This document shows positions 6,297 to 56,438 of a stretch of 64,000 nt of DNA, piece by piece. The notes below the pieces were generated by a model that saw only the letters and a program-made list of their open reading frames with translations, did not search any database and was not told the origin of the DNA. The DNA lies in sequence record PP761450.1; one strand, 5' to 3'. Position 1 is the first letter of the stretch. Each line of letters starts with the position of its first letter. Position numbers and translations under genes: made by a program. The stretch comes from Escherichia phage LHE287.

Positions 6297-6316
6297 AATA
6301 ATTTTTAAAAATTATT
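6297..6316. repeat. perfect 20-bp A/T palindrome
   Basis: AATAATTTTTAAAAATTATT equals its own reverse complement; between terminator and early promoter. Confidence 0.85.
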
Positions 6317-6319
6317 TTT

Positions 6320-6353
6320 GAAGTATTTTAAAAGGCCTCGTCGAATGAGGCCT
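6320..6353 (-). terminator. rho-independent terminator
   Basis: hairpin AGGCCTC-GTCGAAT-GAGGCCT followed on minus strand by TTTTAAAATAC. Confidence 0.6.
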
Positions 6354-6381
6354 GGAGGGAAGTAATGTGAAGTAAAAAGTT

Positions 6382-6588: not shown

Positions 6589-7643
6589 CGCACTTTCCTC
6601 AGTTCAGCAAATTGTAATGATGCGGCCATACCTTGGTAAACGTTCTTGGCGATTAGCTTCAGGAGGTCTTGTATGGACATGTTGCCCTTTGATGGCATAA
6701 CCATGTCGTTGATATCCTTCCAAGGAACGTCTGGTGGGAACAGTACAACCTTGACACCTTTATCTATCATCTTCTGAATACCGTCACACACCTGCGGGTT
6801 CCGGTACTGATTATCAGGGATATAAATGTCACCCTTCACGCTCAGTAGATCAGCGTCGGCCGATGCAAGACAGTTGGGTAGGAACAGGCTGTCAATCGGA
6901 CCTTCCACAACCAGCTTGGTCTTGTGAATGTTCACCCGGTCTTCACCATACACCTTAGTGTCTTCATCCTTGGGCTTGACTGTTGCGTAGCGCAGTGTCG
7001 CATTCTTGTCGAATGCACGCCCCTGAACGATCTTCATGCGACCATCCTGAGTCCAGAACGGAATCACCAGGCGCTCGTCATCGGGGATTTTCAGCTGCTT
7101 CTCAGGGTTCGTTTCGAACTGGAGTAGATCCTGGCGGAAGTGCTGTGTGTAATACAGGAGGGACAAAGTGCTCTCCGGCAGTCCACGCCACTGTACGTAC
7201 TGTCGAGCCTTATGGTCAGGCGGTAGCAGATCAAGCCGTAGCATATTGCCGAGGAGGCTCTCGTCGCGTTTCGCCGCCACCGAGCCAATACGGGCGGTCT
7301 GTGTCAGCTTTGGTAACGGCTTCAGGGAAGGAAGTGGTCTGCCCGACGTATCACCCAGCAGACGGAACTTCTCCATGTTGTATTCTGTTGAGAGGCGCTC
7401 ATCGAACTTCTTCAACCAGAACTCAAATGACCAGCCATTCATCTGGTTGCAGTTGTGGCACTTGAACCGGAAGCAGTCATGATCCCGATCATAGAAGAAG
7501 TATCCACGGCGCTTGTTAGCAGACTTCGTGGAGTCACCGCACAGAGGGCAACGGAAGTTCGCAACAGAACCCACGCGCTCCCACTTGAACTTGTCAAGGC
7601 GAGGTGACACGTTGTTGATAAATTGCTCGTCAAGAAATTTCAT
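6585..7643 (-). CDS. gp61: DNA primase (T4 gp61-like)
   Basis: zinc ribbon CPLCGDSTKSANKRRGYF...CHNCN resembles T4 gp61 N-terminus; TOPRIM-like VVEGPIDSL; start set to ATG 7643 (track start 7721 is TTG). Confidence 0.8.
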   Translation of the reverse strand: MKFLDEQFINNVSPRLDKFKWERVGSVANFRCPLCGDSTKSANKRRGYFFYDRDHDCFRFKCHNCNQMNGWSFEFWLKKFDERLSTEYNMEKFRLLGDTSGRPLPSLKPLPKLTQTARIGSVAAKRDESLLGNMLRLDLLPPDHKARQYVQWRGLPESTLSLLYYTQHFRQDLLQFETNPEKQLKIPDDERLVIPFWTQDGRMKIVQGRAFDKNATLRYATVKPKDEDTKVYGEDRVNIHKTKLVVEGPIDSLFLPNCLASADADLLSVKGDIYIPDNQYRNPQVCDGIQKMIDKGVKVVLFPPDVPWKDINDMVMPSKGNMSIQDLLKLIAKNVYQGMAASLQFAELRKVR

Positions 7644-7817
7644 TAGATCTTCTGCCTCTGGAACACTTCGGTCACAGTATAGTCTACACCACGACTTTGA
7701 GCTATACACAGTTGTTGCCAAGCCCTATACAAAATATTTGTTTACCAGCCGTGTAGTGTTCGAAGTGGGCGAAGCTGTCCAAGAGATTCATGTAGCTTTG
7801 TATGTGTCGGGGTAAAG

Positions 7818-7861
7818 ATTTTGCTCATTGTCCTTTCCTTTTGGTGAATAATGAGCAAAAT
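7818..7861. repeat. 12-bp inverted repeat with 20-nt spacer
   Basis: ATTTTGCTCATT ... AATGAGCAAAAT. Confidence 0.8.
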
Positions 7862-7885
7862 TATATGCCTTTATTTCGTATTGAC

Positions 7886-8239
7886 TTACGACAGCTGTTT
7901 CAGTTTGTAGATCGTCTGGTAACACAGCGTCTTGATTTCATCAAGAGTGTTCTGAAGGTGGGAGTCACACTGCTTGTAGATGCCATCGACGTCTATCACC
8001 ACACTGTTAATATAGGAGATAGGGTCTGGGTTGTACAATTTGATATTCTCGAATGATGGAACATACTGACCACCCGCACCGATGTATGCTTCGGTAAACG
8101 TGTCCAGCAAGTCCTCTAGATCCCCGTAGAACTCCCCGAGTGCCTTGTGCTTGGCATAGGATGTTGTAACGAAGTGTAAGGCATGAGAGTGGGCTATAGC
8201 AAGCAGTCCACGGTTGATGAAAATACTCGCATTGACCAT
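7886..8239 (-). CDS. hypothetical protein (117 aa)
   Basis: ATG 8239 with GAGGA SD; followed by 12-bp inverted repeat. Confidence 0.5.
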   Translation of the reverse strand: MVNASIFINRGLLAIAHSHALHFVTTSYAKHKALGEFYGDLEDLLDTFTEAYIGAGGQYVPSFENIKLYNPDPISYINSVVIDVDGIYKQCDSHLQNTLDEIKTLCYQTIYKLKQLS

Positions 8240-8250
8240 GATGTTGTCCT

Positions 8251-8285
8251 CAGAAAAAGAAATCCCCCTGTATTTAAGGGGGATT
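8251..8285 (-). terminator. rho-independent terminator after 8325..8630
   Basis: 9-bp stem AATCCCCCT/AGGGGGATT, then TCTTTTTCTG on minus strand. Confidence 0.7.
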
Positions 8286-8324
8286 GTAATCACTGCTTGA
8301 CAAGAACCATCTTGATGGTTTCAC

Positions 8325-8630
8325 TTAGTCTTTGTCGGCAGACTTGCCAAAGAAGAATTCGAAGCCGTCATGGACAGCAACGACTTCCTGACCTTGGGAG
8401 ATACCGTGAGTCTGATCCGGAGTCAGCTTCACCTTGATGGTGTTGCCGTTGGTTAACTCCAGGTTGTAGACATCCGCCTGATTGTCAGGAGTGATCTGGG
8501 TCACGGTAGCGCCGGAACACCACTGGGTGCCGTCAGCTTGCTTGGTGATGGATACGGTCTTACCCTGAACACCAGCATGGGTCTGGGGTTGAGCGGCTTG
8601 TTCTTTAAAATATTCGATAAACGGTTTCAT
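8325..8630 (-). CDS. hypothetical protein (101 aa), probable late gene
   Basis: GAGGAG SD; exact TATAAATA box 24 nt upstream; terminator hairpin downstream. Confidence 0.6.
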   Translation of the reverse strand: MKPFIEYFKEQAAQPQTHAGVQGKTVSITKQADGTQWCSGATVTQITPDNQADVYNLELTNGNTIKVKLTPDQTHGISQGQEVVAVHDGFEFFFGKSADKD

Positions 8631-8654
8631 CTTAATCTCCTCGGGGATTTAAGT

Positions 8655-8662
8655 TATTTATA
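8655..8662 (-). promoter_or_regulatory. T4-type late promoter box TATAAATA
   Basis: exact TATAAATA on minus strand 24 nt upstream of ATG 8630. Confidence 0.55.
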
Positions 8663-8678
8663 AGCCCCCGAAGGGGCT
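8663..8678 (-). terminator. hairpin after the 1124-aa gene (terminator-like)
   Basis: AGCCCC-CGAA-GGGGCT; abuts TATAAATA box. Confidence 0.4.
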
Positions 8679-8686
8679 TTTGATGA

Positions 8687-11600
8687 TCAGATCTTAATCT
8701 GCATGTTGCCACCCAGGGACTGCTCGTACTCGCTGTATGCGCCTTCCCCGTAGTCTCGTGCCCACTGGTCAGACTGCTGGGCGCTATCCAGAGTCATCAG
8801 GTTTGGTTCAGTCGGGTTGTAACCCTTGGACTTCGCATCCCGGTACAGAGTCTGCAGGTACTGGTTGGCGCGGTCAATCTGAGCTTTGAACTCGCGATAT
8901 GCCCCTTCAGTTGTGTTGCGGCGGAAGGTGATATCCCAGTCCACGTTCAGAGTCTGACCATCACGGCTTACATAGATCTGCCAATCCAGGTCGCGACCTT
9001 TTGGTGCGTTGTCGCGGATGGAGTCGGCGTATGCCGCAAGGTCGTCCTTCGGATTGTGCGACGTGCTTTTCAGAAGTAGTGCATGACCCATACCACCGTT
9101 TGGCTGAAGAGACCATTTTCCTGTTTCTCTTCCCAGGCGTTCTATGTTGTTGAGTTGGTTTATCGACAATTCAGAAGAGTCAAATAATACCACATCACGT
9201 TTTTTGGGGGTTCTCACATAATGGGTGAGATCAATGTCGATCATCCGGTTTATAAATTCTACCACTTCAGCTTGTTTCTTTGGCAATGTGGTATTGATAT
9301 CCGGCTTGTTTGCCACTTTCTCTAGGCGTTTGTTTTCTGCGCTTATCATGGACAGCATAATTTGTGTAACTTTGCCGTCAGACAAGTTGTAATCATTCCA
9401 AATCACTTCACCTTTATCCGTGATGGTTATATCGTTCAAGAACACCTGGTTTGGGTTGTATGACTGACTTTTCAACTGTTGGAGGTTTCTGGAAAGATAT
9501 TCCATTCTTGATGATATTTCATCAATCATACTCTGGACCACATCTTTGTTCAAAGTAAGTTCATATGTCTTCGGATTGTTCAGGGTACGCCCTTTCTGAG
9601 AGACAATTGGGGTGAATGCAACTTTACCTTTGTCGTAGTAATAGGTCACGTTGGTTATCATAGAAGTACCGGCGTATTTTCCCGTTTCGGGGAAATTGAC
9701 ATCCCACCGAATGGACATACCGTTGACAGTCTCACCAAACACCATGGCGTTGCGCGGTATCTTCAAATTATCCAAAACGGATTGTTCCCCAGAATCAGTG
9801 TTCGGTGGGGTGATATTTTTCTGTTTCCACCAGGCAGTCGCCGCCTTCGTAAACTCTTTAGCCACACCAGACGGAATCGGTGGGAGTTTCAAGGTTTTGG
9901 CCAGGACACCCAAGTCTGAGCCGGACACTTCTGCAAAGGATCTTAATTTTGAGGAAGCACCGTAATACACACCATATACTGGAGTGCCAGAACTTGGTAT
10001 CACATTGATACCACCACCATACATACCTGATTTCTCACGGAACTCCAATACTGGTTGTCCATCAGGTGCCGTTTTGTTATACCAACCAACGACGACGTTC
10101 TCCAAGTTCTTTTCAACGTAGTCCGTTGCTGTTTGAACAAAATCATCAATAATCTTGGGGAATCGTTTTGGATCGCTGATGTCAACATTTTCTAACACAC
10201 CCACAGATGGCGGGAATGCTACCCATTTTTCTGCTGTTGCGTTCCAGGCATTAACAGACATCTGGACTGATTGATTACGTCGCGCAATTGACAGAGTCAG
10301 TTTGTAACGGTCTTTCACAAAGTTCTTGATGTATTCATCATCACCAAATAATTTGCCGCCAGCTGCCTTACTGTAGCCAATGTAATTCAGTAAATTGAGC
10401 CACTTGGATTTGGTAAGTTCACCGCTGTTGTCATTGCCGGTGTCATTGCTGGTGTCAACGTCCACCACCAGAATTATTTGAGAACCTTTCTTGAAAGTGT
10501 ACTGATCGTACATGCCTTTCTTCTGTTTGGTCATGGACGCACCGACCAAGTCTTGGTTGGTGAAGCCGCGCTTCATATTCCAAGATACCTCAGTCCCGTC
10601 TGGATATTTGTCAAAATTATAACCATAGAATACGGCTACTTCTTTCGAACCGCTTATCAGGCGGACGTAGTTTCCACGAATCGGGTCGCGCCCGCTCTTC
10701 AACTCCAGACCAGTGTCCGAGCTGTTGTACCACTCGCGGTTGACTTCGATTTCAGAAGAACCAGCCCCGGTTCCCACACCCCGAGCACCAATAGTGGTGT
10801 TGGAGTCAGCTGGCGCGGACTTCTGCTGAGAACCTTTCCAAAATTTTGTGGACGCCATGGTGAAATCATTCAGGATACTGATAGGGACTTGCGGTAATTT
10901 CAACTGACGAGCAATGAAATCAGCACTTTGCCCACGCACAGGTTTCTCATTCATGTATGCGCCAACATACACGCCCGGCTCATTGTAGTGGGGAGCGATA
11001 TTTGCCGTGTTCATGCGGCCTCTCTCCTTACCAGCCCATAACAACATGGGCTGATCCCCGTTTGAAGTTAATTTCCATCCGTTGGAATTATCAACAGAAG
11101 ATGAAGAACCAGCCCCGGTTCCCAAGTTTGTTTTTCTGGAATCTTCTACGTTTAGATTGAACAATTGTTTCCCAGATGAGTCGGAAGCAATAAATTCATA
11201 TTTCTTGCCACTGCGGGTACTCGTGCTGTTAACTTTGATGTTTCCAGTGTATCTTCCTGGATTCGTTTTTTGCATGAAATTGGTAATTGCAGCAGAAGGG
11301 GTTTTCATCCCAGAAATGATCCTAGCTGTCTCGGGATCAGTGAAAGACACTACGAGTTTGCGCCCATCCATCACTGTGATATCATTTCCAGACACCGAAA
11401 TATCCAAGTCTTCCATTTCAGAACGGAAATCAACACCAACAACAATGGTTTGACCAGTTCCACCCACAACGCCATCAACGCTGTTCTGAACCGGAACGTC
11501 ACCGACCTTGTCTGGATCATCCCAGGTGATACCCTGCATCTTCGGACCGTCAAATACCTGAGCCGGATCTTTACCCTTGCGCACAAGCCACACATAACCA

Positions 11601-26778: not shown

Positions 26779-26793
26779 CCCAAAGTTATAGAA

Positions 26794-27033
26794 TTAACTG
26801 ATGTGCTTCAGAAGAGCGAAGAGGATCGCGGCCTTGGCCTTTACCTTTCCTACGATGCCTGTTTCGACATCAACTTCTTCAGCAACCCACTCTTTTCCCT
26901 TCTTGCTGATGATAACGTCACGACGCTGTGCGTAGACTTCTTTGGTCGCATACACACGGCGGAACCCTTTAGCGCGGAGCAATCCCCAATTGCGATCAAT
27001 TTCTACTGAGGTTTCTACCATTTTGTTCTTCAT
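26794..27033 (-). CDS. hypothetical small basic protein (79 aa)
   Basis: own promoter-terminator cassette (copy 1 of 57-bp repeat). Confidence 0.5.
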   Translation of the reverse strand: MKNKMVETSVEIDRNWGLLRAKGFRRVYATKEVYAQRRDVIISKKGKEWVAEEVDVETGIVGKVKAKAAILFALLKHIS

Positions 27034-27084
27034 GATATAATCTTACCTTTCAACCCGGTGAACCCATCGTTCGCCAGTTATTGA

Positions 27085-27114
27085 ATAATACGCATTTACC
27101 TTATAGAAGTAAAC
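27085..27114 (-). promoter_or_regulatory. early-type promoter in 57-bp repeat copy 1 (-35 GTTTAC, -10 TATTAT)
   Basis: minus strand GTTTACttctataaggtaaatgcgTATTAT upstream of 26794..27033. Confidence 0.55.
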
Positions 27115-27118
27115 CCCT

Positions 27119-27149
27119 AAAAGTAAAAATCCCCAACAAACGTTGGGGA
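27119..27149 (-). terminator. rho-independent terminator (repeat copy 1)
   Basis: CCCCAAC-AAAC-GTTGGGG then ATTTTTAC on minus strand. Confidence 0.7.
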
Positions 27150-27166
27150 TTTAATAAAAGTTATGC

Positions 27167-27391
27167 CTATTTAATTTCTCGGCTTGAATTTTCTAGTTCT
27201 AATTTTCTTATAGCGGAAATTCTGCCTTCATCAGTTGCGGGAAACTCCCAAACAGCACGACGCCCATTGTTGGTATCACAACTTGCCAGCCAGCAGAAAT
27301 TAGAGGGGTCCTTAAACAAGACCAACTTCGGATTTCCTAAATTGATGAGGTTAAACGGGGTGAGGTCAACAACACATGATATAGCAGACAT
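27167..27391 (-). CDS. hypothetical small protein (74 aa)
   Basis: flanked by both copies of 57-bp promoter/terminator repeat; GAAGG SD. Confidence 0.5.
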   Translation of the reverse strand: MSAISCVVDLTPFNLINLGNPKLVLFKDPSNFCWLASCDTNNGRRAVWEFPATDEGRISAIRKLELENSSREIK

Positions 27392-27440
27392 AACATATAC
27401 CTTCTTTCAATGAACGGGAACGCCCCGATCTATGAATTCA

Positions 27441-27877: not shown

Positions 27878-30079
27878 TTAGATTTTGATTTCTTTCTCTG
27901 TCAGTTCGGCAGTGACCTTGTACTTCACGCCATCCACTTCAACTTCCATGGTGGACTCTTCCAGGTCGAGGTCGGTGAACCAGCCGTGGCCAGCAACGAT
28001 ACCATACACCACTTTAGACAGTGTCTTGTTCAGGGCACGGACTTCGGTGATGGCCGCCTTGGCAGCAGCGTCGATCCAGTTTTCGATCAGCTGTTTCTGT
28101 AAGGCTTCAGGCACGGCAGTGATCATAGGAGACTTCACGAATGCTTCGTACTCTTTCAGAGCATTGGCGATGAACAAGTCACCAGCATTGAGTTTCTTGT
28201 TCTCTGCGATCTTCTTCTGTACTGCCGCGATGCTCGGTAGTGAAGACGCCCCGGCGATCTTCACGTTCAGCTCACGGCTCATGTAGAAGTCGGTAGACTC
28301 TTTGGTCTCAGTCTTCGGTGAGAAGCCGTAATCGCGGATGCCGTAGGAGGACAGGAACTCGGCCGCCTCAGCGCCGTACTGTACTGCCAGGCCTTTGGCG
28401 TTACCCTTACCAACCAGGGCGTCTCGATAGAACTTCAGCACCTTCTGCTTGCCTTTCAGGGCTTCCAGACGGACATTATCCGCAAAGAACTGAGCAGCAC
28501 TGATGTTCTTGACCATGGCGCGGTTGACCAGCGGTACGCTTTCCAGGTTCAGGACAAACACTTCCGGGCCACCAAACACGTGGACGCCCATTTCGATCAG
28601 CTTCTGTACAACTTCGATATCAGCCTTGAACGGCAGAGTCTTCACGTTAATGATACCGTCTTTGACGATGGTGTAGTTGCGCCACTGGAAAGTATCCAGT
28701 TCTTCAGGCAGGCCAAACTTCTTCTGTGCGAATTCAGGCACAGCCACAGTACCGTGTTGAATTGTACGCACACTGATGTTCGGGCGCTCGGAGTTATAGA
28801 CCAAATCACTGATTGGCACAACACCCAGATCGTTGGTAGGTTCGAACGTCGGGTTCCACTCTTCGTGTTCTGCCAGCTTGAGAGCCAGGGCTTTACGCTC
28901 TTCTTTGGACTGAGCATTCGCGATCTGTTCTGCCAGCTTGTCTTCGGTGTCGTCGGTTTTCTGCACAGTACCGCGCCCGATACTCTTATAGGAGAACATC
29001 GGATGCTTGGTAGCAACAGGTACACCAGCTTCAGCCAGGTACGTCAGCACATCAACGACGGTGGTCGCATCTTCAGCCGGAACCAGGTCATAGTCAATAC
29101 CGTCAACGCCGCGCAGCTGGTCGTCAACAATCGCCTGAACCAGATCGTTCTTGATGTTGGAGTAGTCCTGCTTGGTGAAGCAGTTGCTGTACTGTTTGAT
29201 GAAGCGAACGTCGCCCGTCTTCTTCAGCGCAGCCCAAACCAGATCTGCGTCCATAGTGTGTACACCGTAGAACGCCAGCACGTATGCCGCCTGGATGTCC
29301 GTCAGGCTATCCATCTGGTCGATCATGTTAGGGTTTACAACCCACAGCTTGGTGACGCTCTCAGGGATGCTCACATAGCCGACCGGGTGAGAGTCATCGT
29401 CCTGCACCGCCAGTACTGTTGCCACACCGTTTTCGACGTAGATGGCATGGGTGTAGATGACTGGGACATCAACTTTCACCTTCGGCACTGATGACTTCAG
29501 CACGTTTTCCAGTTCGGTCTGGTATTCGGTCTGACCTTCGGCAAACACATGAGTCGCGCCAGAGCGCTCGGACATCAGAGCCAGCAGTTCGCGGTTACAG
29601 TGCCAGCCGTATTCGATGAAAGTAATGTTATCGAACGCAGAAGGCAAGGTTTCGGCGACGGCCAGGATTTCGTTTGAGCGCCAGCAGTTGTCATAACCAT
29701 CGGTCATGAATGCCAGGTTGTTGACGTAACCAGGTTTCTTCAGGTCACGCGCAGTATCCATCGCCAGTTTCAACGGCTCAACGAAGCCAGTACATCCGGA
29801 CGGTTGCAGGAAGCGATCGATCAGTTTGTTCAGCTCGCTCAGGTCAGACGCAGCACTAACCTGGCGGCCAGCGAACACAGTACCAAAGTCGCCTTTGGAG
29901 GAGAAATACAGAACGCTCACAGTGTCTTCCGGTTTCACCAGGGAAGGCAGGTTCTCCTTCAGATGCTTACGGACTTCAGGGAGCGCACGGTACATAGAGC
30001 CGGAAATGTCTACAACGATTACATGGTTGGACGGGGTAGCAGTCGCAACCGCATTCTTAAATTCTAATGATTCAATCAT
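27878..30079 (-). CDS. large protein with N-terminal von Willebrand factor A domain
   Basis: 733 aa from ATG 30079; MIDAS motif VVDISGSM plus downstream T and D (FMTDGYDN); rest unassigned. Confidence 0.7.
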   Translation of the reverse strand: MIESLEFKNAVATATPSNHVIVVDISGSMYRALPEVRKHLKENLPSLVKPEDTVSVLYFSSKGDFGTVFAGRQVSAASDLSELNKLIDRFLQPSGCTGFVEPLKLAMDTARDLKKPGYVNNLAFMTDGYDNCWRSNEILAVAETLPSAFDNITFIEYGWHCNRELLALMSERSGATHVFAEGQTEYQTELENVLKSSVPKVKVDVPVIYTHAIYVENGVATVLAVQDDDSHPVGYVSIPESVTKLWVVNPNMIDQMDSLTDIQAAYVLAFYGVHTMDADLVWAALKKTGDVRFIKQYSNCFTKQDYSNIKNDLVQAIVDDQLRGVDGIDYDLVPAEDATTVVDVLTYLAEAGVPVATKHPMFSYKSIGRGTVQKTDDTEDKLAEQIANAQSKEERKALALKLAEHEEWNPTFEPTNDLGVVPISDLVYNSERPNISVRTIQHGTVAVPEFAQKKFGLPEELDTFQWRNYTIVKDGIINVKTLPFKADIEVVQKLIEMGVHVFGGPEVFVLNLESVPLVNRAMVKNISAAQFFADNVRLEALKGKQKVLKFYRDALVGKGNAKGLAVQYGAEAAEFLSSYGIRDYGFSPKTETKESTDFYMSRELNVKIAGASSLPSIAAVQKKIAENKKLNAGDLFIANALKEYEAFVKSPMITAVPEALQKQLIENWIDAAAKAAITEVRALNKTLSKVVYGIVAGHGWFTDLDLEESTMEVEVDGVKYKVTAELTEKEIKI

Positions 30080-30287
30080 TGTTCTCTTCGCCTTGTGCGT
30101 AAGGGTTAAGTTCAGACTCATCAGCGGCTTCGATGCGCGTCTTTACAGAGTCCAGCATATTGTTGATAAATTCACGAGACTGCTCCAGCTGAGCCAAGAG
30201 CACATCCTTTGGAGCATAGTTCTGAATGCAAGCCGGAATACTTTCAGACGTCGCCTTCAGGTCGGTAAAACATTCTTTCAGTATCAT
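30072..30287 (-). CDS. hypothetical small acidic protein (71 aa)
   Basis: stop 5 nt before vWA ATG; weak SD. Confidence 0.4.
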   Translation of the reverse strand: MILKECFTDLKATSESIPACIQNYAPKDVLLAQLEQSREFINNMLDSVKTRIEAADESELNPYAQGEENND

Positions 30288-30354: not shown

Positions 30355-30382
30355 CCCTCAAAACAGGGGAGTTGCCTCCCCT
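30355..30382 (-). terminator. rho-independent terminator after prs-nampt operon
   Basis: AGGGGAG-TTGC-CTCCCCT then TGTTTTGAGG on minus strand; same hairpin sequence recurs at 5662-5680. Confidence 0.65.
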
Positions 30383-30389
30383 TCGGTTA

Positions 30390-32054
30390 TCAGATTTGTG
30401 AGGCCAGTTCTGTCACCAGAGGAGCGGCACGAACACGCGCATCTTCCAGTGTTTGAGTATTGAAGAACTCGCCATCACGATACACCAGCTGGTGCTGGTT
30501 GTCGGCGTCTTGCACCTGATCAAAGGTGATACCGTCAACCAACACTAGTTTACCCTGAGAGTCTTTAATGACTTTAAGGAAACCACGCGCAGACTTTTTA
30601 GTCCCGCCTTTATCGGTCTTCGGCTCTTTGAAGATCTCACGGAATTCACCGTTCACTTTACCAGCCGTGGCTTTCACTGCTGTGCCAGTACTGTCACGGG
30701 TGTTCATCTGGTAGGTGTAGGAACCGATACCGAACACCACGTTGATGGAAGCGAAGTTCCGGTCAGCCAGACGGCTAAAGATCTGGTCTTCACGCGCCAG
30801 GGTGATAGAATCACCGTAGATCAGGCCGATGTGCTCATCCAACAGGAAGTGCCCAGTTTCAGTCTGGGTGCCACCAAAGATCTCCCACAGGCGCTGGATA
30901 GAGCCGACCGCTTCTGAACGGCTGATGATATTACGGTCATCTACCATCAGAGAGTTGATCGTGCCTTCGCCTGTGATCAGGTGATAGGTGTTCGTCTCTT
31001 CGATGTGGATAACTTCGGTGCTGCTAGACACGCCGCTGATGTTCAGCGTAGCGCGGTCTTTGAACCCCTCGATGCGGTAGCCGCCAACGATGTGTACAGG
31101 GTCGCCCGAGTCGGGGCGAATCACGACTTTACCATTGCGCGCCATGATAATGTCTTTCAGGCGAGGCAGATAGTCGTCGATGACCTGCCAGTAATCCCAC
31201 GCATCAGACACGATGCTGACGATGCCATCAGGATACACGTCCTGCACCAGGCGGCGGAAGGTTTCGAATTCGCCATCCTTCGTGCCCATACACATCACCG
31301 CATGTTCCGTTGCGGCAACCGACCCAGCAACGACATAGTCTTCGTCGATGTCTGCGCCATAATACTCTTCTACGAAGTCCAGGGCAGGGTTGGTATCGGT
31401 GCCTTTGAAGAACACCAGATGACCGGAACCGGAAGACGCGGCATCATGCCACCCGCTCATACCACGAAAGGAGAAGTCGTGGCCTTGGTAGTCGATGAAC
31501 CAATGGTCCGGTGATACTCCCGTAGCGAGGGCAGCTTTCACCATCAGTGCCTTGTAATGCAAAGCTATGGTGGCGTTCGTCATCGGCTTCCAGATCTCAG
31601 AGCTGAACACAGTCTCCAGATAGTTGGTCAGCCAGTAGAACTCCGGCAGGGTATTGAACATCACATACACCGGAACGCCATACGGGCACATGGTACCTTC
31701 AGGCAGCGCGCGGACTTCGATAGGCAGGTAGCCGAGGTCATGCAGGGCTTCAATATGCTCTGTGCCGACGCGGCCTGGACCCAGGACTTTGTTCATGCGA
31801 CGGGCATACTTCTTCAGCACCTTGGCCTTCGGGCGCTGGAAGAATGCTTCGTCAAACAGTTCGTGGAACCAGGTCATGAAGCCCTGGATGCCCCAGACCA
31901 CCACGCCGTTCTTCGGCAGGTGAGAGTTGAACAGTTTGTTAGAGCGCGGAGTTCCGTTGGAGAACACCAGCTCACTGCCTTCAGGGAACTGATAGATGTG
32001 CCCCGATTTGTAGAAGTCGATCGCATGGATTGGGTCTAAGTGGCGCATGCTCAT
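30390..32054 (-). CDS. nadV: nicotinamide phosphoribosyltransferase family protein (NAMPT/NadV-like; possibly Namat)
   Basis: 554 aa; start ATG overlaps Prs-like stop (ATGA); family call by recognition of length and N-terminal region typical of NAMPT-type enzymes. Confidence 0.8.
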   Translation of the reverse strand: MSMRHLDPIHAIDFYKSGHIYQFPEGSELVFSNGTPRSNKLFNSHLPKNGVVVWGIQGFMTWFHELFDEAFFQRPKAKVLKKYARRMNKVLGPGRVGTEHIEALHDLGYLPIEVRALPEGTMCPYGVPVYVMFNTLPEFYWLTNYLETVFSSEIWKPMTNATIALHYKALMVKAALATGVSPDHWFIDYQGHDFSFRGMSGWHDAASSGSGHLVFFKGTDTNPALDFVEEYYGADIDEDYVVAGSVAATEHAVMCMGTKDGEFETFRRLVQDVYPDGIVSIVSDAWDYWQVIDDYLPRLKDIIMARNGKVVIRPDSGDPVHIVGGYRIEGFKDRATLNISGVSSSTEVIHIEETNTYHLITGEGTINSLMVDDRNIISRSEAVGSIQRLWEIFGGTQTETGHFLLDEHIGLIYGDSITLAREDQIFSRLADRNFASINVVFGIGSYTYQMNTRDSTGTAVKATAGKVNGEFREIFKEPKTDKGGTKKSARGFLKVIKDSQGKLVLVDGITFDQVQDADNQHQLVYRDGEFFNTQTLEDARVRAAPLVTELASQI

Positions 32055-32905
32055 TTTACACGTCCTGTATTTTCAGTTTTGAAAGGGAGCCCGTCGGCGG
32101 TGATGTTCTCCCACCAGACGGTGTCGGCATACACAGCATCATAGATCCCGTCGAAAACAGAGAGACCTTTGCTGAAGATGCCATGGGTAACGAAGAGCGT
32201 CATGTGCTTAGGCTTGTGCTTCTGAAGCTCTTTGCCTAACTCAACGAACGTGCGCCCACCGTCGCAGATATCATCGACCACCACCAGATAGCGGTCTTTG
32301 ATCAGTTCAGGGTTTGTAACACTCACCCCAATGATCTCACCAGTCTTGGTGTCACGGTTCTTGTGACCGTAGACAACAGGAACACCGTCCAACGACAGGC
32401 TGAGGGCTTCGGTCTTCTTAGCCGCGCCGCCGTCAGGGGCTACCAACACAGCGTTGTTCCCACGGATGAACCAGCCCAGATACTGACGCACGATGTAATC
32501 TTGCGGGACAACATGGACGTTGTTGATCAGAGAAGACACAACATGGCTGTGAGGATCTTTGATCGCCACGCGGTCAAAGTTCATGCTATTGATGAACTCA
32601 GCTGCCCACTTCACAGACAGAGGCTCACCGAAGTCACAATGGCGGTCCTGGCGAGCATACGGGAAGTAAGGGATATACGCATGGAATGTCGTCAGACGGT
32701 CCACGTTACCCAGACCACGAACGGCGTTTACCAGAAGCGCCAGCTCAATGAAGTCAGCCGATGATTTGATGTGAGCATCAATCGCCACGTTCTGAACGTG
32801 GCCGATAGGGATACCAGACTTTTGAATCTTGATATGTTCCTCACCACCTGGGAAGGTGAAGTGTTTGTAGAACACATCTTGGTCGTTCAATTTCAAACGA
32901 AACAT
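32051..32905 (-). CDS. prs: ribose-phosphate pyrophosphokinase family protein (Prs-like; possibly ADPR-PP synthetase)
   Basis: 284 aa; PYFPYARQDRH, KDPHSHVV, VAPDGGAAKK and PRTase loop VVVDDICDGGRT align with E. coli Prs; GAGG SD. Confidence 0.85.
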   Translation of the reverse strand: MFRLKLNDQDVFYKHFTFPGGEEHIKIQKSGIPIGHVQNVAIDAHIKSSADFIELALLVNAVRGLGNVDRLTTFHAYIPYFPYARQDRHCDFGEPLSVKWAAEFINSMNFDRVAIKDPHSHVVSSLINNVHVVPQDYIVRQYLGWFIRGNNAVLVAPDGGAAKKTEALSLSLDGVPVVYGHKNRDTKTGEIIGVSVTNPELIKDRYLVVVDDICDGGRTFVELGKELQKHKPKHMTLFVTHGIFSKGLSVFDGIYDAVYADTVWWENITADGLPFKTENTGRVK

Positions 32906-33013
32906 AATGTAGCCTCATGGTGTATTGTACAGCCGTATTATACTGTGATGCACAAATTGAAACGCCCAGCATTTACGCTGGACGTTATTGATATTGAAAA
33001 GGTTTTGACAAAC

Positions 33014-33254: not shown

Positions 33255-33560
33255 TCACTTAAACGAGTCAACGATGGATGTAAGAATTTCGGGGGTGGGT
33301 TTGGCGTCTTGTGGTTCACGGAAACCCACCTTTGCGATGCGACCCAATACATTGTACACTTCGCGCGGAAGGGTGTCTACGACCGTGTCCGACATGAACA
33401 CCACGTCTTCTTGGATGGCGTTGTATTCGGCCAGTTTAGCCAGTTCTGATTCTACCAGGGACTTCAGCTTTTGCAATGGGTCGTTGCAATAGTTGAGACG
33501 GTTACAGTTGGTGAGCGCCTGAGTTAGATTCTCAAACGCTTCTTGTATTTCCTTTGACAT
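33255..33560 (-). CDS. hypothetical small protein (101 aa)
   Basis: ATG 33560 with GAGG SD (track start 33593 is TTG). Confidence 0.4.
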   Translation of the reverse strand: MSKEIQEAFENLTQALTNCNRLNYCNDPLQKLKSLVESELAKLAEYNAIQEDVVFMSDTVVDTLPREVYNVLGRIAKVGFREPQDAKPTPEILTSIVDSFK

Positions 33561-33942
33561 TGATATGTGCCTCGTATTGTTGACAGACAACAACTACTTT
33601 ACGGCACATGTCGATATCGAACAAGCCAATATGACACTCACGCTTCTTTATCCCCAGCTTATGCGCCAGCCAACTGTAAGCGTCGCTCCTGCTCCTCTCT
33701 CCGCTTTTCCACAATGGGTCAAACGATCTATGGGCTTCCTGCTTAGCAGCACGGAGAGCGGCATTCGCCATCCTTCCCAAAGGTTGTCTGCCGTCGCCAT
33801 GGGCATGGCAACCGACACGGGCATCACATGGAGTGCACACCCAGAACTTCAGATTGCGGAGGTCAGGGCGATGAGGGTAGAGAACATCACCACCGACGAA
33901 TTCGGCTGGGAGGCCACAGTAATCACATATAACAGGTTTCAT
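33532..33942 (-). CDS. zinc-ribbon protein (CxxC...CxxC, HIGLFD motif)
   Basis: start at MKPVICDYCG; Cys pairs CDYC, CTPC. Confidence 0.45.
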   Translation of the reverse strand: MKPVICDYCGLPAEFVGGDVLYPHRPDLRNLKFWVCTPCDARVGCHAHGDGRQPLGRMANAALRAAKQEAHRSFDPLWKSGERSRSDAYSWLAHKLGIKKRECHIGLFDIDMCRKVVVVCQQYEAHINVKGNTRSV

Positions 33943-34002
33943 ATTCTTTGTCCAAAAGAAACCCCGCACATGGCGGGGTTGCTCAGGCTGAGGTCAGACA
34001 GA

Positions 34003-34418: not shown

Positions 34419-36437
34419 TTAGAACACAACTTTCACAGTGCGGTTGAACGAACCGCTCACCTTCACGAACACGTGGTTGCGTTGGGTGGTAGAGAAGCCC
34501 AGACCGGACAGCTGCTCAGTGCTTGGCTGTACTTTAATCTTACCACCTAACATTTCAAAAACCTTGCGGTGTTTATCAAGTTCCGGCTTCAGATATTCGT
34601 TATAGAAACCACGGGTGCCGACAGGGTTAGCACAACCTTCCAGGATGAAGAACACGTGCTTGTTGCCAGTCTGCTCGCCGTCCCAATGGTTTGGTGAGTT
34701 CAGAACCAGCTGTACCTTCTGGAAGACGGAGGTCTTGATGCCCCAGATTTCCTGAGAGCGAGCGTCGTCTTTCAGGGTAGAACTGATGTCAACCACCTGA
34801 CCAGCGCGAACCTGAACCACAACAGCCAACGTGCGATCTTTGTTACCCAGGCCAGGGTGTGAGAAGCGCTTAGTCTGACCTTTGTATTCAACTTCGATTT
34901 CGAAACCAACGTCACAGGTTTCACGCTTGTTGAAGTTGGTGACATAGAACTCATAATTCCCGTCACGCAACTTGCGTTCATCGCTAAAGAAGATGTTCTC
35001 CACCGGACGGCGGTTTGGATCAATGCCGTCCATACCGTTCATGTCGATGTCCAGAGTTGCGCCAGTTGTCGAACGACGGTTGCGAAAATATACGTGGTTG
35101 TGAAGAGGATCGTTCATGCTCAGATCCAGGTCGTCGTTGTTATGCCAAGCCAGTGACACGCGGAGGAAGCTGTCGACATTGCCGCCTGCGGTCTTCACGC
35201 GCTCTTTGATGGAGTCGGCCACTTCGCCATTGTACGACCAGCTGAAGCCGTTGTTCCACTTGAACAGGTTAGGAGCGCCTGCGGTAGCCGGAGCGATCAG
35301 GGACATCAGGTTGCCAATGTGAGAGTTTTCGACCAGCACTTCCAGGGAATGCGCCTTTGGCAACACGTTGGTCAGGAAGTCGTCGATCGTGATCTCTTCA
35401 ACCTTGTCCAGGGACTTGGTCGGAGTCTTCACTTCAGACGCCAGCTGAGCAAACGGGTCCATCTTCTTCTGAGCTGCCAGATCGGCGAACAGAACGTTGT
35501 TGATGGTCAGATCGTCATACACGGCATAACGGCGACCCAGTGAATCGGTCAGACCCAGCGCTTCGACTTCTTTCTGCGCGTTTTCAATCATCGACTTCGT
35601 GACCAGCGCGGTTGGGCGCTTGTAGTTCGTCGGAGCGACTTTGGCTTCAAAGGACTTCACGGCGGTTTCCAGATCCCGGCCTTCATTGAGGTCTACCAGC
35701 AGAGAGCCAATCACGGTATTACGAATGCCGTGAGGGGTATGACCGTTTGCACGGTAGCCAGTGCGCCAAGCCCACAGAGCGCGTTTCTCTTCTGCAGTTT
35801 GTTCGTACAGGGTCTTGTTCACCACGAACGCCTGCACTGCCGCTTTGTGCTCTTCACCGCGATACAGAGAATTCTGGTCAATCAATTCCAGAACGATTTC
35901 AGCCGATTCCAGAGACAGTTCACGCAGGCCGCGCTCAAACACTTCAATCGCCTGGCGGATTTCACCCTTCTTAGAAGCGATGGTATCTGCCCGCAGAACA
36001 TAGCTGCCCAGCAGGTCGGTGTGGAAGTGGTTGTAGGTACGGACAATACCATCTTTCATTTCGTGATTCGACTCAACACCAACTTTCTTGGTGTCGTTGA
36101 AGTACACGTCGACGATTGCGTGCTGCTTAACATATGCTGACAGCGCCGCAGCGACAACGTCGTATTCGTTACCCAGCTGAATGTTATCCCAGATAGAGAT
36201 CACGTTCAGATCGGAGTCGATGGTGACTACACCGCCGATGTTACGGATGAATTGTTTGCAGCAGGTGCAGTCGTGCTCGGTACGCTCACGATAAAGCGGG
36301 TTAGTGCCAGCAGGGAAAGAAGACAGATACAGATCCCACAGAGCATCTTTATCGATGTTGGTCATGAACAGACCAGTTGCTGACATGGCCAGCACGTTAT
36401 TGTTGACAGCTACTGCGAAGGGCTTAAAATCTGACAT
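34419..36437 (-). CDS. large hypothetical protein (672 aa)
   Basis: no P-loop or polymerase motif; CTCC and His-rich segments; function unknown. Confidence 0.6.
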   Translation of the reverse strand: MSDFKPFAVAVNNNVLAMSATGLFMTNIDKDALWDLYLSSFPAGTNPLYRERTEHDCTCCKQFIRNIGGVVTIDSDLNVISIWDNIQLGNEYDVVAAALSAYVKQHAIVDVYFNDTKKVGVESNHEMKDGIVRTYNHFHTDLLGSYVLRADTIASKKGEIRQAIEVFERGLRELSLESAEIVLELIDQNSLYRGEEHKAAVQAFVVNKTLYEQTAEEKRALWAWRTGYRANGHTPHGIRNTVIGSLLVDLNEGRDLETAVKSFEAKVAPTNYKRPTALVTKSMIENAQKEVEALGLTDSLGRRYAVYDDLTINNVLFADLAAQKKMDPFAQLASEVKTPTKSLDKVEEITIDDFLTNVLPKAHSLEVLVENSHIGNLMSLIAPATAGAPNLFKWNNGFSWSYNGEVADSIKERVKTAGGNVDSFLRVSLAWHNNDDLDLSMNDPLHNHVYFRNRRSTTGATLDIDMNGMDGIDPNRRPVENIFFSDERKLRDGNYEFYVTNFNKRETCDVGFEIEVEYKGQTKRFSHPGLGNKDRTLAVVVQVRAGQVVDISSTLKDDARSQEIWGIKTSVFQKVQLVLNSPNHWDGEQTGNKHVFFILEGCANPVGTRGFYNEYLKPELDKHRKVFEMLGGKIKVQPSTEQLSGLGFSTTQRNHVFVKVSGSFNRTVKVVF

Positions 36438-55871: not shown

Positions 55872-56405
55872 TTAGAGAGACTTGTCTGAAATGGCCTGGA
55901 AGTAACGCAGGTCAACAGTGAACTGAGTATAAGAGTCCATTGCAGACATGTCCAGTTCCAGCTGACCGAGGTTCTGAGGCCAGGTGCCCTGAAGGGTCCA
56001 GGTCTTGGTGACGTTGTCATTCGCATCCAGCAGTTCCATGATTACATCACGGAAATAATCATCTGGGTTAGCAGACGCACGGTTGTTGTTGCTGCCGTTG
56101 ATATACTGCTGCCAGACTTCGAATGCGTTGTACGGGGCGTTGTCCACGACGTTGATGAACGTCACAGGCAGAGCCTCGAAACGACGGTCGCCTGGGAATG
56201 GAAGTTCACGACCACCCCATGGGACGAGTATTTCCCCGAGCTGGCCTGTTGGGGTATTTGTGGTCACCGCTAACAGCGAAACATCACGGATGGTATCGCT
56301 TCCAGCCACGAAGGAAGGGAAGTTAACAGTCACACGCCAACGGTGTTGGCGCTGAACGCCGCCCCCGCGTGACATAGCTGCTCTGAATTCATTAACTGTA
56401 GCCAT
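55872..56405 (-). CDS. gp19: tail tube protein (T4 gp19-like)
   Basis: C-terminal TWPQNLGQLELDMSAMDSYTQFTVDLRYF vs T4 gp19 LWPTNVGELQLDWDSNNEIQTFEVTLALDYWE. Confidence 0.85.
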   Translation of the reverse strand: MATVNEFRAAMSRGGGVQRQHRWRVTVNFPSFVAGSDTIRDVSLLAVTTNTPTGQLGEILVPWGGRELPFPGDRRFEALPVTFINVVDNAPYNAFEVWQQYINGSNNNRASANPDDYFRDVIMELLDANDNVTKTWTLQGTWPQNLGQLELDMSAMDSYTQFTVDLRYFQAISDKSL

Positions 56406-56430
56406 GGTCGTTCTCCTCTGAATAGTGTAA

Positions 56431-56438
56431 ATATTTAG
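56431..56438 (-). promoter_or_regulatory. candidate late promoter variant CTAAATAT upstream of tail tube gene
   Basis: minus strand aaCTAAATATt 25 nt upstream of gp19 ATG. Confidence 0.35.

What the first reader, a model, noticed from the sequence alone, without database searches (positions are those of the whole stretch)
30390..32905. Overlapping Prs-like and NAMPT-like genes: candidate NAD+ reconstitution (NARP1-type) counter-defence operon
A 284-aa ribose-phosphate-pyrophosphokinase homolog (YARQDR and VVVDDICDGGRT motifs) is translationally coupled (ATGA overlap) to a 554-aa NAMPT-family protein, and the pair has its own terminator. From recollection of recent work, phage Prs-like/NAMPT-like pairs can pyrophosphorylate ADP-ribose and condense it with nicotinamide to rebuild NAD+, countering NAD+-depleting immunity (Thoeris, DSR, SIR2-type systems). 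I cannot tell by eye whether this pair is that type or a canonical PRPP/NMN salvage pair.
Basis: partly seen in the sequence, partly recalled or inferred. Interest (0 to 1): 0.8.

Follow-up and report, generated by a model that had tools for sequence, protein, structure and literature searches.

The report
Phage NAD+ rebuilding operon (NARP1)
This is a two-gene phage operon of the already described NARP1 type, which most likely rebuilds NAD+ from ADP-ribose and nicotinamide so the phage survives bacterial immune systems that destroy NAD+; it is a real but already catalogued example.

Summary
Two minus-strand genes, 32905..32051 (284 aa, Prs-like) and 32054..30390 (554 aa, NAMPT-like), overlap by ATGA in a phage of the family Ackermannviridae (98% DNA identity to Escherichia phages YX22 and AV101).

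Sequence and fold tests favour NARP1:
- The 554-aa protein groups with validated Namat enzymes, not with Nmnat-associated phage Nampt.
- Its predicted fold best matches the SPbetaL1 Namat crystal structure.
- It carries the published Namat adenine-clamp motif (GSYTYQMNTRD), with one variant residue, Met450.
- The 284-aa protein scores 279 bits on an Adps profile and 82 on a Prs profile. It fails every NCBIfam Prs cutoff and keeps the catalytic lysine.
- No NMN adenylyltransferase is found in the window or in the near-identical AV101 genome.
- Both genes are under strong purifying selection.

Orthologues about 95% identical in DNA (SKML-39, MK-13, P46FS4) are already listed as Adps/Namat in Osterman et al. 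2024, so novelty is low. No Ackermannviridae NARP1 has been tested biochemically.

Minor undescribed points are a well-folded 58-aa insertion in Namat and a distant Macro-domain gene elsewhere in the related genome.

The parts
32051..32905 (-). adps: 284-aa ADP-ribose diphosphokinase (Prs-like) gene
   Evidence: ORF. Scores 278.7 bits on an Adps HMM against 82.0 on a Prs HMM. Neighbour-joining split Prs | Adps+window found in 300/300 bootstraps. Below all NCBIfam Prs cutoffs. dN/dS 0.036-0.074.
30390..32054 (-). namat: 554-aa nicotinamide ADP-ribose transferase (NAMPT-like) gene
   Evidence: ORF. 413-439 bits to validated Namats against 124-184 bits to Nmnat-associated Nampt. AlphaFold2 model pLDDT 94; best PDB fold hit is 9W5X Namat, TM 0.95. 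dN/dS 0.026-0.057.
32051..32054 (-). ATGA stop/start overlap of adps and namat (suggests translational coupling)
   Evidence: Direct reading of the sequence.
32333..32365 (-). Adps residues H181-I191 (HKNRDTKTGEI). K182 aligns with the catalytic K162 of SPbetaL1 Adps. The pattern K-x-R-[DN]-x-x-T-G is shared by all seven Adps aligned and is replaced by KRRPRANVSQ in E. coli Prs.
   Evidence: Alignment and residue mapping. K162A inactivation is reported in Osterman 2024.
32249..32275 (-). Adps residues D211-T219 (DDICDGGRT), the loop that aligns with DDMIDTGGT of E. coli Prs (recalled from the Prs literature as the ribose-5-phosphate loop)
   Evidence: Alignment. The functional meaning of the difference is inferred, not shown.
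30693..30725 (-). Namat selectivity-clamp helix motif (SCH), G444-D454: GSYTYQMNTRD
   Evidence: Published consensus GSX-Phi1-X-Phi2-X-Phi3-TRD. Mapping. Nmnat-associated Nampt have GGGLLQEVTRD and mammalian Nampt has GSGGALLQKLTRD. Met at position 7 occurs in 11 of the 118 aligned sequences.
31908..31949 (-). Namat selectivity-clamp loop (SCL) region, residues 36-49 (PRSNKLFNSHLPKN), with K40 at the position of SPbetaL1 R40
   Evidence: K/R/Y at this position is the published pattern, and Bas63 has K.
30906..31079 (-). 58-aa insertion in Namat (residues 326-383) after RPDSGDPVHIVGG; predicted as a small beta/alpha subdomain
   Evidence: Absent from SPbetaL1, FADO, Staphylococcus and Mycobacterium phage Namats and from Nampt; present in variable form in Bas63, Antha and PaK5. 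Length ranges from 11 to 91 aa across the 118 aligned sequences. pLDDT 89-97, three strands and two helices. dN/dS 0.19 against 0.034 for the rest of the gene.
30360..32066 (-). Span that holds two small signals. One is the terminator-like hairpin 30365-30382 plus the U-run 30360-30364, downstream of namat. The other is the Shine-Dalgarno-like AGGA at 32063-32066, upstream of the namat ATG.
   Evidence: strand folding and sequence reading. The hairpin was not flagged by the consensus scan. The orthologous site is annotated as a terminator in phage May.
32913..32986 (-). Upstream boundary region. It holds a terminator-like hairpin at 32961-32986 after the preceding small gene, a perfect TATAAT at 32937-32942 with no recognisable -35, and a Shine-Dalgarno-like GAGG at 32913-32916.
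   Evidence: strand folding (z = -2.04) and sequence reading. No sigma-70 consensus promoter was called here, so the promoter remains undetermined.

Best explanation
The two genes form a core, two-gene NARP1 operon in a lytic Ackermannviridae phage.

**Inferred mechanism, by homology to the Bas63, SPbetaL1 and FADO systems:**
1. A host NAD+-depleting defence (SIR2-HerA/Nezha, type I Thoeris, DSR1/2, SEFIR and similar) cleaves NAD+ into ADP-ribose and nicotinamide.
2. The 284-aa Adps uses ATP to pyrophosphorylate the 1'' position of ADP-ribose, giving ADPR-pyrophosphate.
3. The 554-aa Namat, a dimeric Nampt-fold enzyme, displaces the pyrophosphate with nicotinamide and regenerates NAD+ directly, with no NMN intermediate and no host NadR or PncC.

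**Shown here:** gene structure, family and clade membership, conservation of catalytic and clamp residues, the predicted fold, purifying selection, and the absence of a detectable phage NMNAT.

**Inferred:** both enzymatic activities, substrate preference, early or middle expression, and the anti-defence phenotype.
For: **Namat**
- 43-46% identity and 413-439 bits to the validated Namats of Bas63, SPbetaL1 and FADO, against 25-28% and 124-184 bits to Nmnat-associated phage Nampt. tblastn over 2,046 phage records shows the same two-level drop.
- Neighbour-joining split Nampt | Namat+window in 200/200 bootstraps.
- phmmer against the PDB: 455 bits to SPbetaL1 Namat 9W5X and 173 bits to mammalian NAMPT.
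- AlphaFold2 model (pLDDT 94) best superposes on 9W5X/9W5W (TM 0.95, rmsd 2.0 A), against 3.5 A for human NAMPT.
- Catalytic core conserved: D13, Y15, F194, R197, D220, H251, R313, D315.
- Namat-specific residues present: S195, S416, and the S445-Y446-T447-Y448...T452-R453-D454 clamp motif, plus K40 in the clamp loop.

**Adps**
- 278.7 bits on an HMM of 16 phage Adps (window excluded), against 82.0 on an HMM of 7 bacterial Prs. True Prs give 76-137 and 465-557 bits.
- Split supported in 300/300 bootstraps.
- All NCBIfam Prs models are below cutoff.
- K182 aligns with catalytic K162.

**Context**
- Adjacent, co-oriented genes with an ATGA overlap.
- No NMNAT/Nudix homologue in the window or in the whole AV101 genome.
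- dN/dS 0.03-0.07.
- Orthologues in SKML-39, MK-13, P46FS4, Ag3 and 0507-KN2-1 are listed as 'Namat within 10 genes: Yes' and 'Adps-associated' in Osterman 2024 Tables S1 and S2.
Against: - No biochemical or genetic test exists for this operon or for any Ackermannviridae orthologue. My literature search found none.
- Clamp position 7 is Met450, not the aromatic residue said to stack on adenine. It is Y, F, H, C or M among relatives. In SPbetaL1, individual clamp mutations cost only 1.3- to 1.7-fold.
- Pairwise scores for Adps are ambiguous: E. coli Prs gives 73 bits, more than FADO Adps at 63.5. Only profiles and trees separate the two families.
- Namat enzymes keep PRPP-to-NMN activity in vitro.
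- A true Nampt, H. ducreyi NadV (9KE8), is fairly close at 355 bits.
- NCBIfam NF006629 'nicotinate phosphoribosyltransferase' passes its cutoff.
- No solved Adps structure turned up in my PDB sequence search, and no structural paper in my literature search, so no residue-level rule for ADPR versus ribose-5-phosphate selectivity could be checked.
Confidence: 0.85

Rival explanations
1. Canonical salvage pair. The Prs-like enzyme makes PRPP from ribose-5-phosphate and the NAMPT-like enzyme makes NMN, which host NadR or PncC then converts to NAD+. The result is a general boost to NAD+ or nucleotide supply.
For: - Database names and Pfam/NCBIfam hits say Prs and NAMPT; NF006629 passes its cutoff.
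- Namats can make NMN from PRPP in vitro.
- E. coli Prs is a detectable homologue at 73 bits.
- Clamp position 7 is not aromatic.
Against: - The Prs-like protein fails all Prs family cutoffs and sits in the Adps clade.
- SPbetaL1 Adps gave no product in the assay for Prs activity, and Bas63 NARP1 works without pncC and nadR.
- The Namat clamp motif is present and the Nampt-type GGGLLQ motif is absent.
- No phage NMNAT was found, unlike NARP2 phages.
Confidence: 0.07
2. The same chemistry as NARP1, but the main role is housekeeping recycling of ADP-ribose and nicotinamide during infection, as in bacterial nrtR-prs-nadV operons, and not counter-defence.
For: - The nearest non-Ackermannviridae relatives include chromosomal Bacteroidota operons next to an ADPR-sensing NrtR regulator and an ADP-ribosylglycohydrolase.
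- The pair matches DNA in 92 phage records, mostly Ackermannviridae infecting Klebsiella, Salmonella, Dickeya, Shigella and Escherichia, which looks like a core gene pair and not a patchy accessory one.
Against: - In Bas63, ADPR-PP appeared only when a defence system was present, and deletion caused a defence-specific plating defect.
- The two roles are not mutually exclusive.
Confidence: 0.06
3. A decayed or inactive remnant, as in Shigella phage Ag3 where the two genes are fused by a deletion.
For: - Ag3 carries an Adps(1-222)::Namat(226-554) fusion, which is the source of phrog_12872.
- Some relatives retain only fragments (H87 and H90).
Against: - Both ORFs here are full length.
- All catalytic residues are intact.
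- dN/dS is 0.03-0.07.
Confidence: 0.01

Closest known systems
NARP1 of Escherichia phage Bas63 / JohannRWettstein (genes 79-80; Osterman et al. 2024, bioRxiv 10.1101/2024.02.11.579819)
   Same: - The same two-gene order, adps then namat, on one strand in a lytic coliphage.
- Adps 36% and Namat 44% identical.
- The same DDICDGGRT loop and K-x-R-[DN]-x-x-T-G motif.
- A Lys at the clamp-loop position.
- An insertion at the same Namat site.
   Different: - A different phage family (Felixounavirus versus Ackermannviridae).
- The Bas63 genes are separated by 45 bp, not overlapping.
- The Bas63 insertion is longer; its Namat is 593 aa.
- Clamp position 7 is Tyr in Bas63 and Met here.
- Bas63 was tested in vivo; this operon has not been.
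NARP1 of Bacillus phage SPbetaL1 (Adps WIT26982, Namat WIT26983; Namat structures 9W5X and 9W5W, PMC12774641)
   Same: - The biochemically defined reference.
- Namat 43% identical; the model superposes at TM 0.95 and rmsd 2.0 A.
- All NAM- and ribose-phosphate-binding residues are conserved.
- Adps K162 aligns with K182.
   Different: - No 58-aa insertion.
- R40, F392 and Y396 in SPbetaL1 against K40, Y446 and M450 here.
- The Adps loop is DDLSSFGGT, not DDICDGGRT.
- Temperate Bacillus phage.
NARP2 (Nampt + bifunctional Nmnat/Nudix; Vibrio phage KVP40 type)
   Same: A phage-encoded Nampt-fold enzyme used to restore NAD+.
   Different: - Needs an NMNAT partner, and none was found in the window or in AV101.
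- Nmnat-associated Nampt are only 25-28% identical and carry GGGLLQ in place of the clamp motif.
NARP1-AP (Adps + Macro-domain phosphatase Adpp + Namat; Vibrio phage Gary; bioRxiv 10.64898/2026.01.28.702374)
   Same: The core Adps and Namat genes.
   Different: - No Macro-domain gene among the seven flanking genes scanned.
- A weak Macro-like 'Tk.4' gene lies about 65 kb away in the related genome AV101, outside the window.
Bacterial class I ribose-phosphate diphosphokinase (Prs) and Nampt/NadV (for example H. ducreyi NadV 9KE8, human NAMPT)
   Same: - The same folds and catalytic chemistry.
- The PRTase loop is present, and the catalytic Lys (Prs) and His (Nampt) are conserved.
   Different: - The Prs-like protein lacks the Prs N-terminal about 15 residues and C-terminal about 25 residues in my alignment, and the KRRPRANV loop is replaced.
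- Scores are below the family cutoffs.
- The Nampt-like protein has the adenine clamp that NadV (GAQTYQRNTRD) and NAMPT (GSGGALLQKLTRD) lack.

Membership tests
Namat (nicotinamide ADPR-transferase) | Nampt-like catalytic core: NAM-stacking Phe and Tyr', Asp215, catalytic His, Arg306, Asp308 (SPbetaL1 numbering) | tested here: met
   F194, Y15, D220, H251, R313 and D315 are all conserved. Residue roles come from PMC12774641.
Namat (nicotinamide ADPR-transferase) | Selectivity-clamp helix motif GSX-Phi1-X-Phi2-X-Phi3-TRD, with aromatic X at positions 3 and 7 | tested here: inconclusive
   The window has GSYTYQMNTRD, matching 10 of 11 positions. Position 3 is Tyr but position 7 is Met450. Position 7 is Y 91, M 11, H 8, F 7, C 1 across the 118 aligned sequences, and Cys or His in the PaK5 and DuncansLeg Namat homologues that sit next to an Adps gene. 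The motif is clearly Namat-type, not Nampt-type, but the strict 'aromatic at 7' rule is not met.
Namat (nicotinamide ADPR-transferase) | Selectivity-clamp loop with Arg, Lys or Tyr at its third position, supplying an adenine-stacking residue | tested here: met
   K40 aligns with SPbetaL1 R40 and Bas63 K42. Actual stacking was not modelled.
Namat (nicotinamide ADPR-transferase) | Phylogenetic placement in the Adps-associated clade, separate from Nmnat-associated Nampt | tested here: met
   Bit scores 381-467 against 124-184. Split found in 200/200 bootstraps. Best fold hit is 9W5X. Orthologues are labelled 'Adps-associated' in Osterman Table S2.
Namat (nicotinamide ADPR-transferase) | Prefers ADPR-PP over PRPP and forms NAD+ directly | not testable with these tools
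   Needs purified enzyme and LC-MS.
Adps (ADPR-PP synthetase) | Member of the phage clade separated from cellular Prs | tested here: met
   Adps HMM 278.7 bits against Prs HMM 82.0. Split found in 300/300 bootstraps. NCBIfam Prs models are all below cutoff.
Adps (ADPR-PP synthetase) | Catalytic lysine (K162 of SPbetaL1 Adps) | tested here: met
   K182 aligns with K162.
Adps (ADPR-PP synthetase) | A Namat gene in the immediate vicinity (true of 97% of the clade) | tested here: met
   The genes are adjacent and overlap by 4 nt.
Adps (ADPR-PP synthetase) | Pyrophosphorylates ADPR and not ribose-5-phosphate | not testable with these tools
   Needs an enzyme assay. No solved Adps structure or published selectivity rule was found.
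NARP1 system | Confers resistance to NAD+-depleting defence systems independently of host pncC and nadR | not testable with these tools
   Needs a phage deletion mutant and plaque assays.
NARP2 system | Nampt together with an NMN adenylyltransferase (Nmnat) in the same phage | tested here: not met
   tblastn with the RHph_X66 NMNAT/Nudix protein found nothing at E<=1 in the window or in the complete AV101 genome. A very divergent NMNAT could be missed.
NARP1-AP system | Macro-domain ADPR-1''-phosphate phosphatase (Adpp) within two genes of Adps/Namat | tested here: not met
   A Pfam scan of seven flanking proteins found no Macro hit at E<=0.1. The defining study used the more sensitive HHpred.
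Class I ribose-phosphate diphosphokinase (Prs) | Scores above the curated family cutoffs (TIGR01251 and the NF00xxxx equivalogs) | tested here: not met
   TIGR01251 gives 104.2 bits against a cutoff of 113. The equivalog models give 47-90 bits against cutoffs of 296-536.

The most novel reading that the evidence does not exclude
The Ackermannviridae version may be a functional variant of NARP1, not a plain copy. Two readings remain open:
1. The well-folded, faster-evolving 58-aa insertion subdomain, together with Met450 in the adenine clamp, changes donor selectivity or regulation of Namat.
2. The operon works in trans with the distant Tk.4-like Macro-domain protein as a split NARP1-AP, which would also defeat aRES-type defence that produces ADPR-1''-phosphate.
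Probability: 0.12. Interest if true: 0.45.

Novelty: already known. Interest (0 to 1): 0.25.

Why it matters
NARP1 lets phages undo NAD+ depletion, one of the commonest bacterial abortive-infection strategies. Knowing that Ackermannviridae carry an intact, strongly conserved copy helps predict which defence systems will fail against them. These phages (Agtrevirus, Kuttervirus, Taipeivirus, Limestonevirus) are widely used as therapeutic and biocontrol agents against E. coli, Shigella, Salmonella, Klebsiella and Dickeya.

The practical lesson is about annotation. Public records still label these genes 'ribose-phosphate pyrophosphokinase' and 'nicotinamide phosphoribosyltransferase'. For basic science this instance adds little beyond what the 2024 NARP1 paper already lists.

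Tried and rejected
- **PHROG families as a discriminator.** Rejected. phrog_619 also matches E. coli Prs at 193 bits, and phrog_448 matches both Namat and Nampt.
- **Pairwise BLASTP for Adps.** Ambiguous. E. coli Prs at 73 bits scores above FADO Adps at 63.5. I replaced it with profile HMMs and a tree.
- **First bootstrap runs.** The Biopython run gave meaningless clade supports because of rooting. The Kimura-distance run produced invalid logarithms and 162/200. Redone with Poisson distances, the split appears in 300/300.
- **First dN/dS for Namat against phage May.** Out of register because of compensating indels. Redone on a protein-guided codon alignment.
- **Consensus promoter and terminator scan.** It flagged neither flanking hairpin and no promoter directly upstream of adps, so the promoter is undetermined.
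- **Accessory genes.** I looked for a Macro-domain (Adpp) or RyR-domain (RyDEP) gene next to the operon and found none.
- **Adps structure.** I looked for a solved structure or a paper giving residue-level rules for ADPR selectivity and found none.
Full report
**1. Observation.** The window carries two minus-strand ORFs exactly where stated: 32905..32051 (284 aa) and 32054..30390 (554 aa). The + strand reads tcat at 32051-32054, which is ATGA on the coding strand, so the first gene's stop overlaps the second gene's start. The quoted motifs (PYARQDR, VVVDDICDGGRT) are present. Pfam assigns the first protein to the Pribosyltran and Pribosyltran_N families and the second to the NAPRTase family. 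PHROGs gives E=2.7e-90 and 9e-194.

A 7-bp GC-rich hairpin with a GNRA loop, followed by GUUUU, starts about 10 nt after the second stop codon (30365-30382). The consensus scan did not call it and its stability is unremarkable (z = -1.28). The orthologous site in Klebsiella phage May is annotated as a terminator. A second hairpin (32961-32986) separates the pair from the preceding small gene and is followed by a perfect TATAAT (32937-32942) with no -35. The pair therefore looks like a bounded unit, but its promoter is undetermined.

**2. Genome context.** The region is 98.3% and 97.8% identical in DNA to Escherichia phages YX22 and AV101, and about 95% identical to P46FS4, SKML-39 and MK-13. 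AV101's taxonomy line reads Ackermannviridae, Aglimvirinae. The window is collinear with AV101 from about 66 to 132 kb.

The pair lies in a long run of minus-strand genes between replication and recombination genes (helicase, clamp loader, regA). This fits early or middle expression, but that is an inference. The flanking genes encode a 747-aa VWA-domain protein, a DUF3268 zinc-finger protein and small proteins of unknown function. None has a Macro or RyR domain.

**3. What defines the known system.** Osterman et al. (bioRxiv 10.1101/2024.02.11.579819) showed that phage 'Prs/Nampt' operons are in fact Adps and Namat. Adps converts ADPR and ATP into ADPR-PP. Namat converts ADPR-PP and nicotinamide into NAD+. 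The evidence came from three systems:
- Bas63: in vivo, and independent of host pncC and nadR.
- SPbetaL1: in vitro, with K162A and R306G mutants inactive.
- FADO: in vivo.

Lan et al. (PMC12774641) solved SPbetaL1 Namat (9W5X, 9W5W) and defined a selectivity clamp. It has two parts: a variable loop (SCL, with R/K/Y at its third position) and a helix motif (SCH) with consensus GSX-Phi1-X-Phi2-X-Phi3-TRD, whose aromatic residues stack on adenine. Nampt lacks this clamp.

**4. Test of the NAMPT-like protein.**

| Comparison | Result |
|---|---|
| Validated Namats (Bas63, SPbetaL1, FADO) | 413-439 bits, 43-46% identity |
| Nampt next to or associated with an Nmnat (RHph_X66, K14-2, GAP161) | 124-184 bits, 25-28% identity |
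| Neighbour-joining split Nampt versus Namat+window | 200/200 bootstraps |
| phmmer against SPbetaL1 Namat (PDB) | 455 bits |
| phmmer against H. ducreyi NadV (PDB) | 355 bits |
| phmmer against mammalian NAMPT (PDB) | 173 bits |

tblastn over 2,046 phage records shows the same step, from 37-46% identity down to 25-28%. An AlphaFold2 model built on 118 sequences (the window protein plus 117 homologues) is confident (pLDDT 94.1, pTM 0.93). Its best PDB matches are the Namat crystal structures (TM 0.95, rmsd 2.0 A), ahead of HdNadV and human NAMPT (rmsd about 3.5 A).

Residue mapping shows the whole catalytic core conserved: D13, Y15, F194, R197, D220, A248, H251, R313, D315, G414, D415. The Namat-specific residues S195, S416, S445, Y446, T447 and Y448 stand where Nampt has G, E/G, G, G, L and L. 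The helix motif reads GSYTYQMNTRD, so position 7 is Met450 and not aromatic. Across the 118 aligned sequences this position is Y 91, M 11, H 8, F 7, C 1, and all 118 have the Namat-type motif. I treat Met450 as a minor variant and not as a failed test, but I mark the strict rule as not fully met. The clamp-loop residue is K40, as in Bas63.

**5. Test of the Prs-like protein.** Pairwise scores do not decide the question: Bas63 Adps gives 129 bits, SPbetaL1 95, E. coli Prs 73 and FADO 63.5. I therefore built two profile HMMs. One used 16 phage Adps (three validated, the rest from Osterman Table S1 with a Namat neighbour, all Ackermannviridae excluded). The other used 7 bacterial Prs.

| Query | Adps HMM (bits) | Prs HMM (bits) |
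|---|---|---|
| Window protein | 278.7 | 82.0 |
| True bacterial Prs | 76-137 | 465-557 |

The split Prs | Adps+window is recovered in 300/300 bootstraps. All NCBIfam Prs models are below cutoff: TIGR01251 gives 104 against 113, and the equivalogs give 47-90 against 296-536.

K182 aligns with the catalytic K162. The loop HKNRDTKTGEI follows a K-x-R-[DN]-x-x-T-G pattern shared by all seven Adps in my alignment, where E. coli Prs has KRRPRANVSQ. The loop that aligns with DDMIDTGGT of E. coli Prs (recalled from the Prs literature as the ribose-5-phosphate loop) reads DDICDGGRT. My PDB sequence search and literature search turned up no solved Adps structure or structural study, so the link between these differences and ADPR selectivity is an inference.

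**6. Other context tests.**
- No NMNAT/Nudix homologue was found in the window or anywhere in AV101, so this is not NARP2.
- Both genes are under strong purifying selection. Against phage May, with dS about 0.8-0.9, dN/dS is 0.036 for Adps and 0.057 for Namat.
- Orthologues in SKML-39, MK-13, P46FS4, Ag3 and 0507-KN2-1 appear in Osterman's Table S1 with 'Namat within 10 genes: Yes' and in Table S2 as 'Adps-associated'.
- The 90%-identity cluster that holds this protein is represented by Shigella phage ChubbyThor, and ChubbyThor's Adps is a tree representative in Table S1.

**7. Mechanism and confidence.** I conclude, with confidence about 0.85, that this is a core two-gene NARP1 operon. Adps pyrophosphorylates the ADPR released by host NADase effectors, and Namat joins ADPR-PP to nicotinamide to restore NAD+.
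- Shown here: gene structure, family membership, residue conservation, fold, selection and the absence of an NMNAT.
- Inferred: both activities, the preference for ADPR-PP, expression timing and the anti-defence phenotype.

Three rivals remain:
- A canonical PRPP/NMN pair (about 0.07).
- The same chemistry with a mainly housekeeping role (about 0.06).
- Decay or inactivation (about 0.01).

**8. What is not in the literature I read.**
- This Namat has a 58-aa insertion (residues 326-383) after RPDSGDPVHIVGG. Such insertions are shared in variable form by Bas63, phi92-like and PaK5 Namats, and range from 11 to 91 aa across the 118 aligned sequences. Here the insertion is predicted as a confident small beta/alpha subdomain and evolves faster than the rest of the protein (dN/dS 0.19 against 0.034). 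The NAR paper's main text never uses the word 'insertion'.
- AV101 encodes, about 65 kb away and outside the window, a 'Tk.4' protein. It is homologous (E about 1e-15) to the Macro-domain proteins PaK5 gp019, which lies two genes from PaK5 Namat, and Bas63_0095. This could be an Adpp-like activity acting in trans, but it is untested.

**9. Verdict.** The finding is real and correctly interpreted, but it is already catalogued. The remaining value is correcting the public annotation and two small leads: the insertion with Met450, and the distal Macro gene.

Noticed in passing
L016 (Fibrella aestuarina HE796683) 4361-9174: The nearest non-Ackermannviridae relatives of this Namat (about 50% identity) include chromosomal Bacteroidota genes. 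In Fibrella the gene order is NrtR-like regulator, Adps-type Prs paralogue (266.7 bits on the Adps HMM against 103.3 on the Prs HMM), Namat-type NadV, DUF4291, ADP-ribosylglycohydrolase. This matches the ADPR-derepressed 'nrtR-prs-nadV' operons whose dedicated prs paralogue Rodionov et al. 2008 (PMC2330246) called unexplained. They are probably bacterial NARP1 pathways that recycle ADPR.
   Followed up: partly
L013 (AV101, OQ973471) 31899-32498; outside the window: The 'Tk.4' protein is homologous (tblastn E about 1e-15) to the Macro-domain proteins PaK5 gp019, which lies two genes downstream of PaK5 Namat, and Bas63_0095. On its own it reaches only 16.5 bits on PF01661, below the cutoff. It is a possible ADPR-1''-phosphate phosphatase acting in trans with NARP1.
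   Followed up: partly
window 30906-31079 (Namat residues 326-383): A 58-aa insertion predicted as a confident small beta/alpha subdomain. The site is hypervariable in length (11-91 aa) across the Namat family. Here it evolves faster (dN/dS 0.19) than the rest of the gene (0.034). The word 'insertion' does not occur in the main text of the Namat structure paper.
   Followed up: partly
Shigella phage Ag3 (FJ373894; protein P0009); phrog_12872: Ag3 carries an in-frame fusion of Adps residues 1-222 to Namat residues 226-554, that is, a deletion across the gene junction. This single aberrant protein appears to be the basis of PHROG 12872, which explains why the Adps here 'hits' a family named nicotinamide phosphoribosyl transferase.
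   Followed up: partly
window 27878-30121 (-): A 747-aa protein with an N-terminal von Willebrand factor A domain (PF00092, E=4e-7) lies two genes downstream of the operon and overlaps a 71-aa ORF (30072-30287). Its function is unknown.
   Followed up: no
window 33535-33945 (-) and 34419-36437 (-): Upstream neighbours are a DUF3268 zinc-finger protein (E=2e-37) and a 672-aa protein with no Pfam hit at all.
   Followed up: no
window 7644-11482 compared with AV101; also about 26780-27436 and 56405-57629: Collinearity with AV101 breaks at a few places, including a gap of about 3.8 kb in the blastn tiling. These suggest indels or replaced gene cassettes between the two phages.
   Followed up: no
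Phage records H87 (Dickeya phage phiDP10.3) and H90 (Escherichia phage vB_EcoM-RPN242): Some relatives match only fragments of Namat: residues 446-554 in H87, and residues 375-418 at 84% identity inside a 'hypothetical protein' in H90. This hints at occasional loss or disruption of NARP1, or at incomplete records.
   Followed up: no
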